Shown here: one piece after another, positions 17,331 through 20,581 of the stretch
Layout of the letters: every line of letters begins with the position of its first letter
Numbering within the stretch: position 1 is the stretch's first letter
DNA from: an uncultured delta proteobacterium
GTDB lineage: Bacteria > Desulfobacterota > RBG-13-43-22
Reading direction: 5' to 3'
NCBI GenBank assembly: GCA_963790475.1
Contig: CAWBOS010000006.1
Location: forward strand, 320,001 to 384,000
DNA: 64,000 nucleotides
Notes under the pieces: generated by a model
What the model was told of the DNA's origin: nothing
Databases searched by the model: none
What the model saw: the letters and a program-made list of their open reading frames with translations, nothing else
Program-made: the position numbers and the translations under genes

Positions 17331-17719
17331 TTATTGAAGCAAGCGTTTTATAAGGTCCGGATCGTCCTCAAACATCCGTAGAAAATTCCCCTGAATCAAG
17401 TCTGTCATTTGTTCAACAGTGGTATTTTTCACTGCGGCCAATTCAGAAATCACATCGATGATGTTCCTGGGTAACCCCAGGGCATCGGGCAGACTGAGTT
17501 TAACCAGTGGATTGTCGGTTTCGGTCAGCAGCCGCTCCAAGGGTATTTCTCGAGCGATGTTTTTTATATGATCTGAAAATAGAATTTCAACACCGATGGT
17601 AAAATAGGCCCCCAGAGAAACCAATGGAAGTAGAAAATCCGATATTGTTTTGTCTCGGCCAGGGCCAGGGCTTCGTTTTCGCTAAACAGATCGAAATGGG
17701 TATGGGCGTCGATCAGCAT
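17331..17719 (-). pseudogene. tatD: TatD hydrolase remnant with large internal deletion
   Basis: MLIDAHTH from ATG 17719 joined out of frame to the C-terminal ...IPLERLLTETDNP... segment; the centre is missing. Confidence 0.8.
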
Positions 17720-17905
17720 CACCATCTCTTGCTTCGTTGATTTATATTAAAATAATCGGACTATGAAATTAGGAGATTTGACCTTGCATGTCAAGGAATA
17801 AGGTCTCGAGCATCCGGGACCTGACCTTTTTGGTCGGTAGTTTGAATAGCGAAACGCTTCTTAGGCGCTTAGTGAATCAACATCGACAAAGTTTTGTCGA
17901 TAATA

Positions 17906-19564
17906 TTATGCTGCCATTTTATAAATTTCAAAAATTTGTTGCATCTCATGTTGGATATTTTTGTAATGAATATCGATAGTAGAGAAGTTTCCAGGTTTTG
18001 GTCCGGGATGATGCTTTTCAGCGCCAGCGAGCAGAGGAATCAATATTTTTTCCCGCAGAACAAGGACAGCCGTCATCGAACGCAAGCCCACCGGGGTGGC
18101 CATATAACAGCGCGAATGGCCGATCATTTGAACCAGATCTTTACCTCTAAACTTTTTCAAGTCATAAGAAGCCTGCCGAGCCTGATACCGGCTCTGCGGG
18201 ATTCTGAGAATTTCCCGGACTTTTTCTGCCAGATTCGCAGCCGTAAATCCACGGGGATGGATAGAAAGAGCAATAACAGCTTCCATGACCGCCCGGATAC
18301 GAGGCCGATTGATATCGACCCCTCCCACGGAGGTGGCTCCAACCTTAGAGGGCAGAGGCCACTTCTCCAAGGTACCGTTATCAATAAAAGAAACATCGAC
18401 CCCGTTCAGAACGGTGAGGAATCTTTCCAGGACTTCTTTAAGGGATTCGCAGATCTGTGGGAAACGATCGATCCGTTTTCCGCAACGCAACTGACTCGTA
18501 TTGTGAATAATAACCTCGGTTCGGAGAACCCTTTCGCCTTTGCTATACATCTTGACCGTCATTTTTCCAAAATGGATTTTGAAGATCGTCAGATCATAGA
18601 CAGGTCTCTCGACCGTGATCTCGAATCGAGGCAACGGTTTCTTGCCGTGATGACTGAATGGCCGGTGTCGATAGCCAAAAATAGTTCGAACCGTCTTGAG
18701 ATTCAAAGGGGCTCTGGTTCGATCGATCAAGCCCTGGAACACCTGATCCAAAGTTCGGCCTCGGTTAAAAAGCAGATTGCGGCTATACTCCATCTGATAA
18801 ACAGAATAACTGTAATGGAAGCCACTGGCTTTCTGCTCCGAAAGATCCAAGGCAAAACAAAGACAGGCCGAATAAATCCATTGATCGCAGGTCCGAACCA
18901 GACGCCCTACAGAGCACGAGGCCCTCATGGTATCCGCGATGTGGTCCAGACCTGCGCTATCGGTCACTGCCGTAAAGCAGTTACCTTCTTTAGTAAAGAC
19001 AAGCCCTTGTTTCATGGCCTGACGGGATAGATATTCATGTCCGTTCAGGATGATCTGGGCATTAAAAGGAGGATGGGGACAGAGTTTGATGGTCAGATGT
19101 CCCCATTCCGGATCCATTATGTGGAACGAATAATGGTTGACATAGGGGTAAGGGGTCTTGGTGGAAATGTTACTGATCCCCCCGCTTTTAGATCGCTGAA
19201 TGTGGAAAAGGGGTGCCGGAGCAATCCCGGCCAGAATACAAAATACACCCCGAAAGTTCGGATCCCCGGGAATATATTGCTCGGCCACCTCGTGCTTTCG
19301 TTCACCGCGCTGGCAATGGATCAAGGGAATACCTTCTTTCTTAGCATAGGCATGAATCCGTCGGCTGAGTCGTCCGGCAAAACGCATCAGGTTGGTATCA
19401 TTCAGATCGTTATCTGTTCCCTTCAAGGCCCGCCACCAGGTTCTAAATCCTCCAGGGGACTGGCCAAAAATGAAATAGGCATTGAGCACAATACGATCAA
19501 TACAATCATAAATGCCGTCAAGGTAGTCTTGATATTGCTTGCAAAATTCATCTGCCATGATCAT
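17906..19564 (-). CDS. Putative non-DDE transposase/relaxase-like protein with C-terminal winged HTH
   Basis: 552 aa; DRIVLN, CPHPPF...LNGHEY, YQMEYSRN, KMYSKG..VLRTEV (YxK/RxE pattern reminiscent of Rep_trans), wHTH-like ASYDLKKFRGKDLV...Y.AT..G. Confidence 0.6.
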   Translation of the reverse strand: MIMADEFCKQYQDYLDGIYDCIDRIVLNAYFIFGQSPGGFRTWWRALKGTDNDLNDTNLMRFAGRLSRRIHAYAKKEGIPLIHCQRGERKHEVAEQYIPGDPNFRGVFCILAGIAPAPLFHIQRSKSGGISNISTKTPYPYVNHYSFHIMDPEWGHLTIKLCPHPPFNAQIILNGHEYLSRQAMKQGLVFTKEGNCFTAVTDSAGLDHIADTMRASCSVGRLVRTCDQWIYSACLCFALDLSEQKASGFHYSYSVYQMEYSRNLLFNRGRTLDQVFQGLIDRTRAPLNLKTVRTIFGYRHRPFSHHGKKPLPRFEITVERPVYDLTIFKIHFGKMTVKMYSKGERVLRTEVIIHNTSQLRCGKRIDRFPQICESLKEVLERFLTVLNGVDVSFIDNGTLEKWPLPSKVGATSVGGVDINRPRIRAVMEAVIALSIHPRGFTAANLAEKVREILRIPQSRYQARQASYDLKKFRGKDLVQMIGHSRCYMATPVGLRSMTAVLVLREKILIPLLAGAEKHHPGPKPGNFSTIDIHYKNIQHEMQQIFEIYKMAA

Positions 19565-19565
19565 C

Positions 19566-19730
19566 GGTCTTTCCCTGGTCGATCTTTTGATATGGAGGGC
19601 TCCCCAGTCATTGCCGGGGCCCCTTCTCGGCGGCTGCGAGAATGGGCCCCTGAGCGGCTCGTCGGAGCAGCCGCCTCAATTAGAGGTTCTTTTACAGCTA
19701 ATATCGGGGCTACCCCTTAAGGGAAAGACC
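19566..19730 (-). ncRNA. Structured leader / candidate ncRNA of the IS-like element
   Basis: 11-bp perfect closing stem GGTCTTTCCCT/AGGGAAAGACC with several GC-rich internal hairpins; directly downstream of a promoter. Confidence 0.5.
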
Positions 19731-19759
19731 AGATTAAAGACTCCGGGCTTTTAAGTCAA
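19731..19759 (-). promoter_or_regulatory. Sigma70-like promoter inside the element
   Basis: TTGACT-17 nt-TAATCT. Confidence 0.55.
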
Positions 19760-19853
19760 CTGCCCTGTTAGGGGCCACCTCTTCCGGGGAACTCCCGGAC
19801 GAGGCGTAGTAACTTAGGAATAGAATTCTACTCAAATTGGATAGAATATTTCG

Positions 19854-19939
19854 TCGTCATAAGGTCTCGCGGAGGCGGGAATCCAGGCTATTCTCAACTT
19901 ATTAAAAACACTGGATTCCCTTTTTCAAGGGAATGACGA
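19854..19939. repeat. GTCATTCC...GGAATGAC palindromic repeat (dRS3/REP-like), degenerate
   Basis: CGTCAT..GCGGAGGCGGGAATCCAG...CTGGATTCCC...GGGAATGACG; related to 26836-26903. Confidence 0.65.
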
Positions 19940-20160
19940 AAATAGGCTTTCGGTGACTTTTTACGAATCCACCAAATGTTACAATATTTCAAATATGGTT
20001 CCGGCTTGTCCGGGTTAGGGTCTACCGGACTGTAATAAAGGGGATGTTTCTGAATATATCTTTATTTTTTTGCTCTAATTCCAATGAGGCCCAAAATGAT
20101 TCTTCCTGCAAGTACAAGGCCACTCAAAATGGGTGACAACGGGAAGGTCTTTTTGGTTTC

Positions 20161-20364
20161 ATGAGTAGCAAGGCATCATTGGACGGTCAGCCGGGAGGCT
20201 TTTCGGTGAACGGAAACAGTAACTCTACCGGAAGCTTTGTATCAAGACTGGGAATTACTGCCCAAGGACGGGGCAAGGCCTCTTTCTACCTTCGGTATGA
20301 GGGAGACTTCCGTTCCGATTATATGGGCCAAAGCATAAACGTCGGCATTCGTGTGGCTTTTTAA
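20161..20364 (+). pseudogene. C-terminal fragment of an autotransporter beta-barrel
   Basis: Alternating strands SFYLRYEGDFRSDY...SINVGIRVAF with terminal Phe; rest of gene absent. Confidence 0.6.
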
Positions 20365-20581
20365 GGAGATTTTGAGACCCATTCTCAAACCGAAAGCCCT
20401 TGAACTTCAGATCGCCTCATAATTAACCTTGATTTCCTTATAGCAATTTCCCGAACCCAATTTCAACAATATTTGTAACCAGAAACGCTTCTCAGCTATT
20501 AACTGTCGGTAGTATGCTGGTTTTTAAATTCAATCCCCAAAGACTTATTCCCCCGGAAGATAAATATTTTATTTTTTACTC

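What the first reader, a model, noticed from the sequence alone, without database searches (positions are those of the whole stretch)
19566..19759. Promoter-driven ~165-nt structured RNA in front of the putative transposase
Seen: TTGACT-17-TAATCT directly precedes a GC-rich segment closed by an 11-bp perfect stem whose 3' arm (AGGGAAAGACC) covers the likely RBS. Internal hairpins include TGAG-GCGGCT/AGCCGC-TCA, GGGGCCC-TTCTCG/CGAGAA-GGGCCCC and CCCCGG/CTGGGG. Known: IS110 bridge RNAs and IS200/605 omega RNAs are element-encoded guides in non-coding ends. Inference: either a protein-binding or guide ncRNA, or a translational silencer. I found no convincing complementarity to the flanks by eye, so guidance is unproven, and the predicted start site may clip the 5' stem arm.
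Basis: partly seen in the sequence, partly recalled or inferred. Interest (0 to 1): 0.75.

Follow-up and report, generated by a model that had tools for sequence, protein, structure and literature searches.

The report
Transposase leader hairpin with inserted RNA module
The structured stretch is the promoter and 5' untranslated leader of a jumping-gene enzyme: a family-typical hairpin that hides the ribosome-binding site, its loop swollen by a 130-base insertion that carries a small conserved RNA hairpin also found in other jumping genes, and it does not look like a guide RNA.

Summary
The region lies in a 1.95-kb insertion sequence (window 19809..17862, minus strand) with 5 near-identical copies in this genome. 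Its 552-aa protein has no Pfam match and belongs to a huge unannotated family. This scan flagged that family before on other DNA as Rep_trans-like.

Relatives share two left-end hairpins, a -35 box abutting the second hairpin, and a short 20-53 nt leader with a local hairpin over the ribosome-binding site. The window's 11-bp closing stem is that hairpin. Its ~130-nt interior is absent from the closest available relative (84% protein identity) and from all other relatives seen.

The interior holds a 47-nt covarying motif ("R1", 19675..19629) that is not in Rfam. R1 also sits in the leaders of ISL3 transposases, and of a distant homologue, in the same genus.

Leader complementarity to target, ends or flanks does not exceed shuffles, so a guide role is unsupported. 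Best reading: a translational silencer, strongest on read-through transcripts, carrying an acquired module of unknown role. The start site is unmapped and covariation in the stem is weak.

The parts
19810..20019 (-). ~210-bp repeat 'R213' directly upstream of the element's left end. It ends in the target-like TAAGTTA (19816..19810).
   Evidence: 8 solo copies elsewhere in the genome, 4 copies joined to the IS, 2 copies split by IS110-family elements.
17862..19809 (-). The insertion sequence proper. It starts CTACGCC (19809..) and ends ..TAAGCGC-CTA (17871..17862). CTA is present at both junctions.
   Evidence: 5 copies at 99.7-100% identity. The C15 copy has different flanks on both sides and its base after CTA is T, not A.
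19778..19804 (-). Left-end hairpin 1 (hp1), conserved and covarying across the family.
   Evidence: 73 distinct left ends; 9 of 11 pairs carry changes on both sides; 94.8% of cells paired.
19762..19776 (-). Left-end hairpin 2 (hp2; GGCCCC-loop-GGGC), nearly invariant in the family.
19731..19759 (-). Promoter-like TTGACT-17-TAATCT; the -35 box abuts hp2.
   Evidence: The same position holds TTGAC(A/T)-17-TAnnnT in many relatives. Not listed by the simple scan.
19720..19730 (-). 5' arm of the closing stem (anti-Shine-Dalgarno), starting right after the -10 box.
19590..19719 (-). ~130-nt lineage-specific insertion in the loop of the ribosome-binding-site hairpin. Boundaries are set by comparison with L107 and are approximate to a few bases.
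   Evidence: L107, 84% protein identity, has a 12-nt loop instead.
19629..19675 (-). R1 motif: P1 GGCGGCTGC/GCAGCCGCC, conserved internal loops UCCGACGA and CCAUUCUC, and a short P2 hairpin.
19616..19650 (-). Window-specific alternative hairpin (GGGGCCC-A-UUCUCG / CGAGAA-G-GGGCCCC) that competes with the R1 fold.
   Evidence: the R1-enforced fold is 7-10 kcal/mol above the minimum-energy fold.
19566..19576 (-). 3' arm of the closing stem, AGGGAAAGACC, covering the likely Shine-Dalgarno region.
17906..19564 (-). 552-aa ORF: a TBP-like double domain (residues 1-390) plus a winged helix (395-520); the presumed transposase.
17883..17900 (-). Right-end hairpin TCGACAAA-AC-TTTGTCGA, downstream of the stop codon.

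Best explanation
The region is the promoter and 5' untranslated leader of the transposase mRNA of a site-specific insertion sequence. It is not a separate guide RNA. The family blueprint is: two left-end hairpins, a promoter abutting the second hairpin, and a short leader in which a sequence just after the -10 box pairs with the Shine-Dalgarno region. The window keeps this pairing as a perfect 11-bp stem. A ~130-nt insertion has landed in the hairpin loop, giving a predicted 159-nt leader. The 5' arm starts one base after the -10 box, so transcripts from the element's own promoter should lack most of it and be translatable. Transcripts reading in from outside carry the whole arm and have the ribosome-binding site shut. 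This is the logic known for IS10 and IS200. The inserted piece carries a discrete 47-nt structured module (R1) shared with other transposase leaders of the same host genus. Its role here is unknown: passenger or extra regulator. Shown: the anatomy, copy number, conservation pattern, R1 covariation and the lack of guide-like complementarity. Inferred: the start site, the effect on translation and any activity of R1.
For: The stem and fold stability are shown. The same anti-SD/SD pairing is kept in 9 relatives (98 of 99 cells paired, 99.0%; 1 compensatory and 3 wobble-type changes). The closest available relative, L107, has the stem with a 12-nt loop. Among the 36 leaders with a good promoter match, 35 have a predicted leader of 20-53 nt and the window has 159 nt. 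The distance from left end to ATG has a median of 117 nt over 87 distinct leaders; the window's is 245, ranking 76th. In the window the predicted unpaired fraction of the SD region is 0.32 when the RNA starts at the left end, 0.75 from the predicted own start, and 0.62 when the upstream part is shuffled (1 of 25 shuffles as low). Two small non-coding derivatives in the genome keep only 49-57 nt of the left end and 39-41 nt of the right end (a third left-end-like piece of 72 nt stands alone), so the leader is not needed in cis (inference). The R1 module has 5 pairs with changes on both sides in 13 sequences, and RNAalifold finds the same helices. R1 matches at bit scores of 66-78 in ISL3 leaders (ISL3 identity by Pfam) and 91 nt before the start of a 25%-identical homologue in a same-genus genome. 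No R1 occurs in 99 other family loci. Published precedents: IS200 (PMC4513863, passages read), ISPpu9 (PMC8450116, abstract read) and transposon 5' terminators (PMC2965389, passages read).
Against: The transcription start is not mapped, and the -10 box matches only 3 of 6 positions. Covariation in the stem is weak: 54-92 of 500 shuffles reach the observed values. Across the family, occlusion of the SD by upstream sequence is no better than with shuffled upstream sequence (mean 0.34 against 0.37; only 10 of 36 lower by more than 0.05). Read-through protection is therefore specific in the window and a few relatives, not demonstrated as a family rule. R1's invariant internal loops suggest a function that this explanation does not account for. 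In the window the R1 fold is predicted 7-10 kcal/mol less stable than a competing fold.
Confidence: 0.55

Rival explanations
1. The long leader, or R1 within it, is an active regulatory RNA in its own right. It could be a protein- or ligand-responsive attenuator, a stability or processing element, or a small RNA that ties transposase output to the state of the host. On this view several unrelated insertion sequences of the same host lineage recruited it for that reason.
For: R1 has covarying helices and invariant internal loops. Homology between contexts stops exactly at the ends of P1. R1 lies in the sense orientation in the leaders of ISL3 transposases, of this IS and of a 25%-identical homologue, all in one genus. 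In ISL3-type contexts it is followed by a U-rich tract. Four RNA-library contigs from 3 studies hold only the R1 core, with other flanks.
Against: In the window there is no U-tract after R1, and a competing hairpin is predicted to win by 7-10 kcal/mol. Mobile elements spread horizontally, so part of the conservation may be shared descent. No partner or ligand is known. There is no Rfam match. Only 13 sequences were aligned.
Confidence: 0.22
2. The structures act at the DNA level. They would be single-strand hairpins that the Rep-like transposase recognises during nicking or strand transfer.
For: The protein's closest Foldseek match is a rolling-circle initiator that acts on hairpin origins. 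The left end carries strongly covarying hairpins.
Against: Those hairpins (19804..19762) lie upstream of the finding. The region 19566-19735 is absent from relatives and from the small derivatives that keep only the ends.
Confidence: 0.08
3. The leader is a guide RNA like an IS110 bridge/seek RNA or an IS200/605 omega RNA, specifying target or donor by base pairing.
For: The element is site-specific, inserting after TAAG-N3 at CTA, and has no terminal inverted repeats. It has a long structured non-coding left end.
Against: No DEDD or TnpB domain is found. Complementarity to target, ends and flank is no better than shuffles. Relatives with the same target pattern have leaders of 20-53 nt without this RNA.
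Confidence: 0.03
4. The relevant transcript is antisense: a plus-strand small RNA across the leader that regulates the transposase mRNA, as art200 does in IS200 or Asr9 in ISPpu9.
For: Two terminator-like hairpins with T tails lie on the plus strand at 19563..19583 and 19673..19687. Precedents are in PMC4513863 and PMC8450116.
Against: No plus-strand promoter was found in 19480-19700. The terminator-like hits are weak (5-7 pairs, some G-T). There are no strand-resolved reads.
Confidence: 0.07

Closest known systems
IS200 tnpA 5' UTR stem-loop and left-end terminator (Ellis et al. 2015, PMC4513863, passages read; Beuzon et al. 1999, seen only as a reference)
   Same: An inverted repeat in the transposase leader sequesters the Shine-Dalgarno sequence. 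The left end also carries structures that limit outside transcription. The element belongs to a hairpin-ended, site-specific class.
   Different: IS200 has a small HUH Y1 transposase and a mapped start site, and repression was shown experimentally. Here the protein is an unrelated 552-aa TBP-like/winged-helix protein, the stem spans a 143-nt interior, and nothing has been tested at the bench.
ISPpu9 long structured 5' UTR (Gomez-Garcia et al. 2021, PMC8450116, abstract and outline read)
   Same: A long 5' UTR is predicted to fold over the ribosome-binding site. The copies sit in repetitive extragenic sequences.
   Different: [quoted passage not shown] No such RNAs are shown here.
IS10/Tn10 protection from external promoters ('fold-back inhibition'; Davis, Simons and Kleckner 1985; recalled, and seen only as reference 59 of PMC2965389)
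   Same: Only read-through transcripts contain the upstream arm that pairs with the translation start region.
   Different: IS10 is a DDE cut-and-paste element. The geometry here is predicted from an unmapped start site.
'Mobile attenuators': 5' terminators upstream of transposase genes, including ISL3 (Naville and Gautheret 2010, PMC2965389, passages read)
   Same: In the ISL3-type contexts R1 is a stem followed by a U-rich tract between the element's end and the transposase start.
   Different: R1 has conserved internal loops and occurs in several unrelated elements. In the window it lacks the U-tract. Whether the paper's clusters include R1 could not be checked, because its supplementary tables are closed.
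IS110/IS1111 bridge or seek RNAs (PMC11187229, search listing and abstract start only)
   Same: A site-specific element without inverted repeats and with a long non-coding region next to the transposase gene.
   Different: No DEDD transposase, no loop complementarity to target or donor, and the RNA is not conserved in relatives.
Rep_trans rolling-circle initiators and MOB_T relaxases (PDB 4CIJ)
   Same: 4CIJ is the top Foldseek match of the protein model. Both have a TBP-like double saddle, and in both cases hairpins lie at the site of action.
   Different: There is no Pfam PF02486 match at E up to 1. TM-scores are low (0.20/0.36). 4CIJ does not appear among the top 50 entries by VIA Z. No catalytic residues were assigned.

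Membership tests
IS110/IS1111 bridge/seek RNA systems | DEDD transposase (Pfam DEDD_Tnp_IS110 / Transposase_20) | tested here: not met
   no Pfam family at E up to 1. The same scan detects these domains in two other elements of this genome.
IS110/IS1111 bridge/seek RNA systems | Loops of the non-coding RNA complementary to target and donor DNA | tested here: not met
   the longest Watson-Crick or G-U match to target, left end, right end and flank is reached by 22-200 of 200 shuffles in all 16 tests.
IS200/IS605 omega RNA with TnpB | TnpB (OrfB_IS605) protein encoded by the element | tested here: not met
   no hit in Pfam, NCBIfam or PHROGs.
Shine-Dalgarno-sequestering transposase leaders (IS200 type) | An upstream leader segment complementary to the ribosome-binding site | tested here: met
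   a perfect 11-bp stem, 19730..19720 with 19576..19566.
Shine-Dalgarno-sequestering transposase leaders (IS200 type) | The pairing is kept in relatives | tested here: met
   98 of 99 cells paired (99.0%) in 9 relatives, with 1 compensatory change. Statistical support is weak (54-92 of 500 shuffles as high).
Shine-Dalgarno-sequestering transposase leaders (IS200 type) | The structure lowers translation | not testable with these tools
   Only predicted accessibility is available.
Read-through protection (IS10 type) | The own start site lies inside or after the upstream arm | tested here: inconclusive
   The arm starts 1 nt after the -10 box. The start site is not mapped, and the RNA-library data are contigs only.
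Any Rfam 15 family | Covariance-model match | tested here: not met
   no match at E up to 10 (window) or up to 1 (nine R1 loci) over the leader or R1.
Intrinsic 5' terminator / mobile attenuator | A G+C-rich stem followed by a U-tract upstream of the transposase start | tested here: not met
   In the window R1 is followed by CGAGAAGGGG, and no minus-strand terminator-like site lies between 19720 and 19566. The feature is met for R1 in ISL3-type contexts.
Rep_trans (PF02486) for the 552-aa protein | Sequence-profile match | tested here: not met
   none; no PDB sequence relative.
Rep_trans (PF02486) for the 552-aa protein | Shared fold | tested here: inconclusive
   4CIJ at E 1.2e-3, probability 0.99, TM 0.20/0.36. 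TBP at Z 8.4-8.7 with 176-179 residues aligned; 4CIJ is not in the top 50.

The most novel reading that the evidence does not exclude
R1 is a portable cis-regulatory RNA module. It would be a terminator- or hairpin-embedded sensor with two invariant 8-nt internal loops, passed between unrelated insertion sequences (ISL3, this Rep-like family and a distant homologue) within a host lineage. It would set transposase output through a host factor or small molecule, and in this element it would have been grafted into the loop of the ribosome-binding-site hairpin.
Probability: 0.15. Interest if true: 0.7.

Novelty: new variant of a known kind. Interest (0 to 1): 0.45.

Why it matters
The finding removes a tempting 'new guide RNA' reading and replaces it with a testable regulatory layout. 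That layout is a family-wide hairpin over the ribosome-binding site, placed so that the element's own promoter may escape it.

It also yields two things worth following. The first is a 47-nt covarying RNA module, absent from Rfam, that turns up in the leaders of unrelated transposases. The second is a clean description of the left end, promoter and target (TAAG-N3 then CTA) of a very large, unannotated insertion-sequence family. That family's enzyme looks like a rolling-circle initiator rather than any known transposase. Knowing which part of the left end is conserved (hp1, hp2) and which is dispensable (the leader) tells experimenters what to put in a minimal transposition substrate.

Tried and rejected
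- **Rfam.** Nothing was found over the leader or over nine R1 loci. The weak tracrRNA and ctRNA rows (E 1.3 and 3) are chance matches.
- **Guide complementarity.** It does not exceed shuffles.
- **ISL3 origin of the insertion.** I considered that the whole 130-nt insertion is a decayed ISL3 end or MITE. Local alignments show homology only over the 45-52-nt R1 core in six contexts and over 87 nt in one (L213). The idea is dropped.
- **Read-through occlusion as a family rule.** It is not specific against shuffled upstream sequence.
- **Antisense ORFs** at 19037-19720 and 19539-19754: no Pfam match, and they span the non-conserved insertion.
- **Structure and sequence searches.** The first structure model from a shallow alignment was unusable (pLDDT 57). 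The PDB sequence search found nothing. PHROGs and NCBIfam found nothing. Plasmid records call the homologues 'hypothetical protein'.
- **RNA libraries.** Only 4 metatranscriptome runs hold small shares, and only as contigs. They cannot show a start, an end or a strand, and DNA carry-over is possible. Parts without cover mean nothing.
- **R1 in the family.** R1 was found with this model in none of the 99 other family loci examined and in 10 of 151 related genomes. This is 'not found', not 'absent'.
- **Literature.** Searches found no paper describing this protein family as a transposase or describing the R1 motif. Subscription journals are not covered, and supplementary tables (for example those of PMC2965389) were closed.

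Full report
**Observation.** On the minus strand, TTGACT (19759..19754) is followed by 17 nt and then TAATCT (19736..19731). The segment GGTCTTTCCCT (19730..19720) follows directly. Its perfect complement AGGGAAAGACC (19576..19566) ends one base before the ATG of a 552-aa ORF (19564..17906). Folded as RNA, 19735..19560 has a minimum free energy of -78.4 kcal/mol, against -59.5 +/- 4.4 for 200 dinucleotide shuffles (z -4.3; none as stable). The description is therefore correct and the structure exceeds chance. The promoter alone does not: it matches 8 of 12 consensus positions and is not listed by the simple scan.

**The element.** The ORF lies in a repeated element. BLAST of 17500-20400 against the window's own 6.34-Mb assembly finds 5 copies at 99.7-100% identity.
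- Four copies share 2161 bp (window 20019..17859). The fifth, on contig C15, starts only at about 19816.
- Flank comparison sets the element proper at 19809 (CTACGCC...) to 17862 (...TAAGCGC-CTA). There are no terminal inverted repeats.
- The upstream 210 bp (20019..19810) is a separate repeat, here called R213. It has 8 solo copies that end ...TAAGTTA-CTA-A.
- In the C15 copy the left flank is ...TAAGATT and the base after the right-end CTA is T. In the other four copies that base is A, as at the end of solo R213. CTA therefore stands at both junctions and the following base belongs to the target.
- In roughly 120 of the 160 related loci fetched, the left end is CTACG(C/T), most often preceded by TAAG-N3 or a near variant (AAAG-, TAAC-, CTAG-).
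- One locus (L138) holds two copies head to tail, joined ...TAAGCGC|CTACGCG.
- The element is thus site-specific, and its own right end mimics its target.

**The protein.** Pfam, NCBIfam and PHROGs give nothing at E up to 1.
- The family is very large. The word-indexed search found 5854 proteins at E <= 0.001 among 8000 candidates scored. The exhaustive search found 5216 representatives at 50% identity. There are 436 confirmed places in species-representative genomes, across Thermodesulfobacteriota, Planctomycetota, Chloroflexota, Acidobacteriota and Proteobacteria.
- Nearly all members are called 'hypothetical protein', often on ~2-kb contigs.
- A model from a 41-sequence alignment (pLDDT 88, pTM 0.85) shows a TBP-like double saddle over residues 1-390 (TBP Z 8.4-8.7, 176-179 residues aligned) and a winged helix over 395-520 (Z 9-10).
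- The best Foldseek match is the Rep_trans rolling-circle initiator 4CIJ (E 1.2e-3, probability 0.99, TM 0.20/0.36). This is suggestive, not proven.
- Two earlier notes of this scan on other genomes (e1-4327148, e1-2404774) reached the same Rep-like reading. They are leads, not independent evidence.

**What is conserved in homologue leaders.** In 73 distinct left ends, hairpin hp1 (window 19804..19778) covaries strongly: 9 of 11 pairs carry changes on both sides, 94.8% of cells are paired, and the covariation score is 0.407 against 0.131 in shuffles and at most 0.120 when the partners are slid.
- Hairpin hp2 (19776..19762) is nearly invariant.
- In many relatives a -35 box, TTGAC(A/T), begins two bases after hp2, with a 17-nt spacer to TAnnnT.
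- Among the 36 leaders with a good promoter match and a leader of at least 18 nt, 35 have predicted 5' UTRs of 20-53 nt. The window's is 159 nt.
- The distance from left end to ATG has a median of 117 nt over 87 distinct leaders. It is at most 135 nt in 67 of them, and the window's 245 nt ranks 76th.
- In the window's subfamily the short leader is a local hairpin over the ribosome-binding site, for example TTGTCTTT-A-CCC / 11-13-nt loop / GGG-x-AAAGACAA then ATG.
- L107, the closest available relative (84% protein identity), has GGTCTTCACCT / 12-nt loop / AGGGGAAAGACC then GATG.
- In 9 relatives 98 of 99 cells of this helix are paired (99.0%). One pair changed on both sides (U-A to G-C, the state also seen in the window) and three changed by wobble. 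Because so little varies, 54-92 of 500 shuffles reach the observed values.

**The insertion.** The window's 11-bp stem is this family hairpin. About 130 nt (19719..19590) have been inserted in its loop. The two small non-coding derivatives in this genome keep only 49-57 nt of the left end and 39-41 nt of the right end (C10:1336843-1337066, C10:801064-801286); a third left-end-like piece of 72 nt (C10:871569-871640) stands alone. I infer that the leader is not needed in cis for mobility.

**The interior and R1.**
- A 42-47-nt core (19676..19630) recurs at 91-95% identity in two other places of the genome. Each lies 55 nt upstream of a 420-aa ORF that Pfam identifies as an ISL3 transposase.
- A BLAST search of 401 genomes of the phylum gave matches at E <= 0.01 in 20. 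In about 10 genomes besides the own one, the match spans the core at 80-90% identity.
- Thirteen sequences align to GGCGGCTGC-UCCGACGA-(hairpin)-CCAUUCUC-GCAGCCGCC. P1 and P2 show 5 pairs with changes on both sides, 87.2% of cells are paired against at most 48.4% when slid, and the internal loops are invariant. RNAalifold predicts the same two helices.
- A covariance model (R1) finds the motif in 10 of 151 related genomes. There are 7 copies in the own genome (5 in this element, 2 in ISL3) and 9 in one congener. One more lies 91 nt upstream of a 25%-identical homologue of the 552-aa protein in another congener.
- R1 is found in none of 99 other loci of the family.
- Local alignments show that homology between contexts stops at the ends of P1. 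The exception is one congener locus (L213), which shares 87 nt.
- In ISL3-type contexts R1 is followed by a U/A-rich tract. That resembles the 5' terminators reported upstream of transposase genes, ISL3 included (PMC2965389, passages read).
- In the window R1 is instead followed by CGAGAAGGGGCCCC.

**Guide reading.** I compared the leader (19735..19566) with the target side (19860..19810), the left end, the right end and the downstream flank, on both strands, with and without G-U pairs. The longest complementary runs were 5-12 nt, and 22 to 200 of 200 shuffled leaders did as well. The protein is not of the DEDD or TnpB type. Relatives with the same kind of target lack this RNA altogether.

**Silencer reading and its control.** I computed the predicted unpaired fraction of the 12 nt upstream of the ATG.
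- In the window it is 0.32 for an RNA starting at the left end, 0.75 for an RNA starting 7 nt after the -10 box, and 0.62 on average when the part upstream of that start is shuffled (1 of 25 shuffles as low).
- Across 36 leaders the long RNA is less accessible than the short one in 31.
- The shuffled-upstream control is almost as occluded (mean 0.37 against 0.34), and only 10 of 36 are lower by more than 0.05.
- Specific read-through occlusion is therefore supported in the window and a few relatives, not as a family rule.
- With a start near 19724, only 5 of the 11 pairs would remain, closing a 143-nt loop. Own-promoter mRNA should then be translatable (0.75, against 0.57 for L107). The insertion may even have loosened self-repression, but that is inference.

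**RNA libraries.** Only four metatranscriptome runs hold small shares of the stretch, and they are kept as contigs.
- One 249-nt contig covers 19581..19814 with 8 differences. A close relative of the leader with the insertion therefore exists in a sediment sample.
- That contig also spans hp1 and hp2. This would fit a read-through transcript or DNA carry-over.
- Four other contigs from 3 studies hold only 19628/19632..19672/19677 (the R1 core), with unrelated flanks.
- Contigs cannot show starts, ends or strand.

**Conclusion.** The finding is the promoter and 5' UTR of the transposase gene of a site-specific insertion sequence. The closing stem is a conserved hairpin over the ribosome-binding site, of the kind shown experimentally for IS200 (PMC4513863, passages read) and ISPpu9 (PMC8450116, abstract read). 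It is placed so that, as in IS10 (recalled), outside transcripts are probably silenced more than the element's own. The interior is a lineage-specific insertion that brings in R1, a small structured module shared with other transposase leaders and not in Rfam. R1's function is open. A guide-RNA role is not supported.

**Not done.** No start-site data exist. Deeper sampling of close relatives that carry the insertion was not possible, because the contig look-up by protein identity is closed. Catalytic residues of the protein were not assigned.

Noticed in passing
window 19810-20019; G000 C10, C11, C12, C13: R213, a ~210-bp repeat (starts CCTAACCCGGACAAGCCGG, ends TAAGTTA-CTA-A), acts as an insertion hot-spot. 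The Rep-like element sits at its 3' end in 4 places. Two other copies are split at different points by ~1.5-kb elements whose ORFs match Pfam DEDD_Tnp_IS110 (C12:171511-173091 and C12:1488923-1490453).
   Followed up: partly
window 19866-19880 region of R213; G000 C12:316020-318180 and C12:1576858-1579016: Three of the four R213+IS composites share a private 4-nt insertion variant in R213 (GCGAGACCTTATGACG) that none of the 8 solo copies has. The fourth composite (C10) has the ordinary R213. This suggests that R213 plus the IS can be copied as one 2161-bp unit, using the R213 start as an alternative left end.
   Followed up: partly
G000 C10:519258-519471 and C10:1521114-1521318: Two solo R213 copies carry scars. 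One ends TTACTA-CGCCT-aaag; the element starts and ends with CGCCT, so this looks like a deletion between those direct repeats. The other ends ...TATTC-ACTAAGCGCCTAA, which is the element's right end joined at a shared ATTC.
   Followed up: no
G000 C10:1336843-1337066, C10:801064-801286, C10:871569-871640: Two ~223-bp MITE-like derivatives have 49-57 nt of the left end (82-92% identity) and 39-41 nt of the right end, with unrelated sequence in between. A third left-end-like piece of 72 nt (C10:871569-871640) has no right-end partner.
   Followed up: no
L029, L030, L114, L115, L118, L119, L124, L125, L127: Another subgroup of relatives has a different, conserved ~220-250-nt insertion between hp2 and the -35 box (it contains ...GTTGAGTTATCCACAGAGTGCTACAAGAGCTCCGAGATTTTGCCC...). 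The left-end-to-ATG distance there is 340-365 nt. It was not examined.
   Followed up: no
L052, L054, L058, L060, L065, L067, L080, L082, L105, L106 and others: In the Acidobacteriota and Proteobacteria relatives the best promoter match puts the -10 box about 7 nt before the ATG. Their transposase mRNAs may therefore be leaderless.
   Followed up: no
L089-L104 (one long-read Alphaproteobacteria MAG): Of 14 copies in one genome, 10 share the same 30-nt left flank (...gagaagagtcgggtggTAAGGGA). As here, most copies sit next to a repeated sequence.
   Followed up: no
window 19563-19583 and 19673-19687, plus strand: Two terminator-like hairpins with T-rich tails lie antisense to the leader. This is a possible antisense RNA and is untested.
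   Followed up: no
L229 (G011:C351:1-2267): Here R1 lies about 60 nt after the end of an ORF that by eye looks like an IS110-type C-terminus, and about 640 nt from a reverse-strand ORF with an HUH-like NHVHLL motif. Both assignments are by eye and were not checked against Pfam.
   Followed up: no
window 17865-17871 with 19804-19809: Joined head to tail, the ends read ...TAAG-CGC-CTA-CGC-C.... The arms GCG and CGC could form a tiny hairpin with CTA in or beside the loop. This recalls nick sites in hairpin loops of rolling-circle origins. It is an idea only.
   Followed up: no
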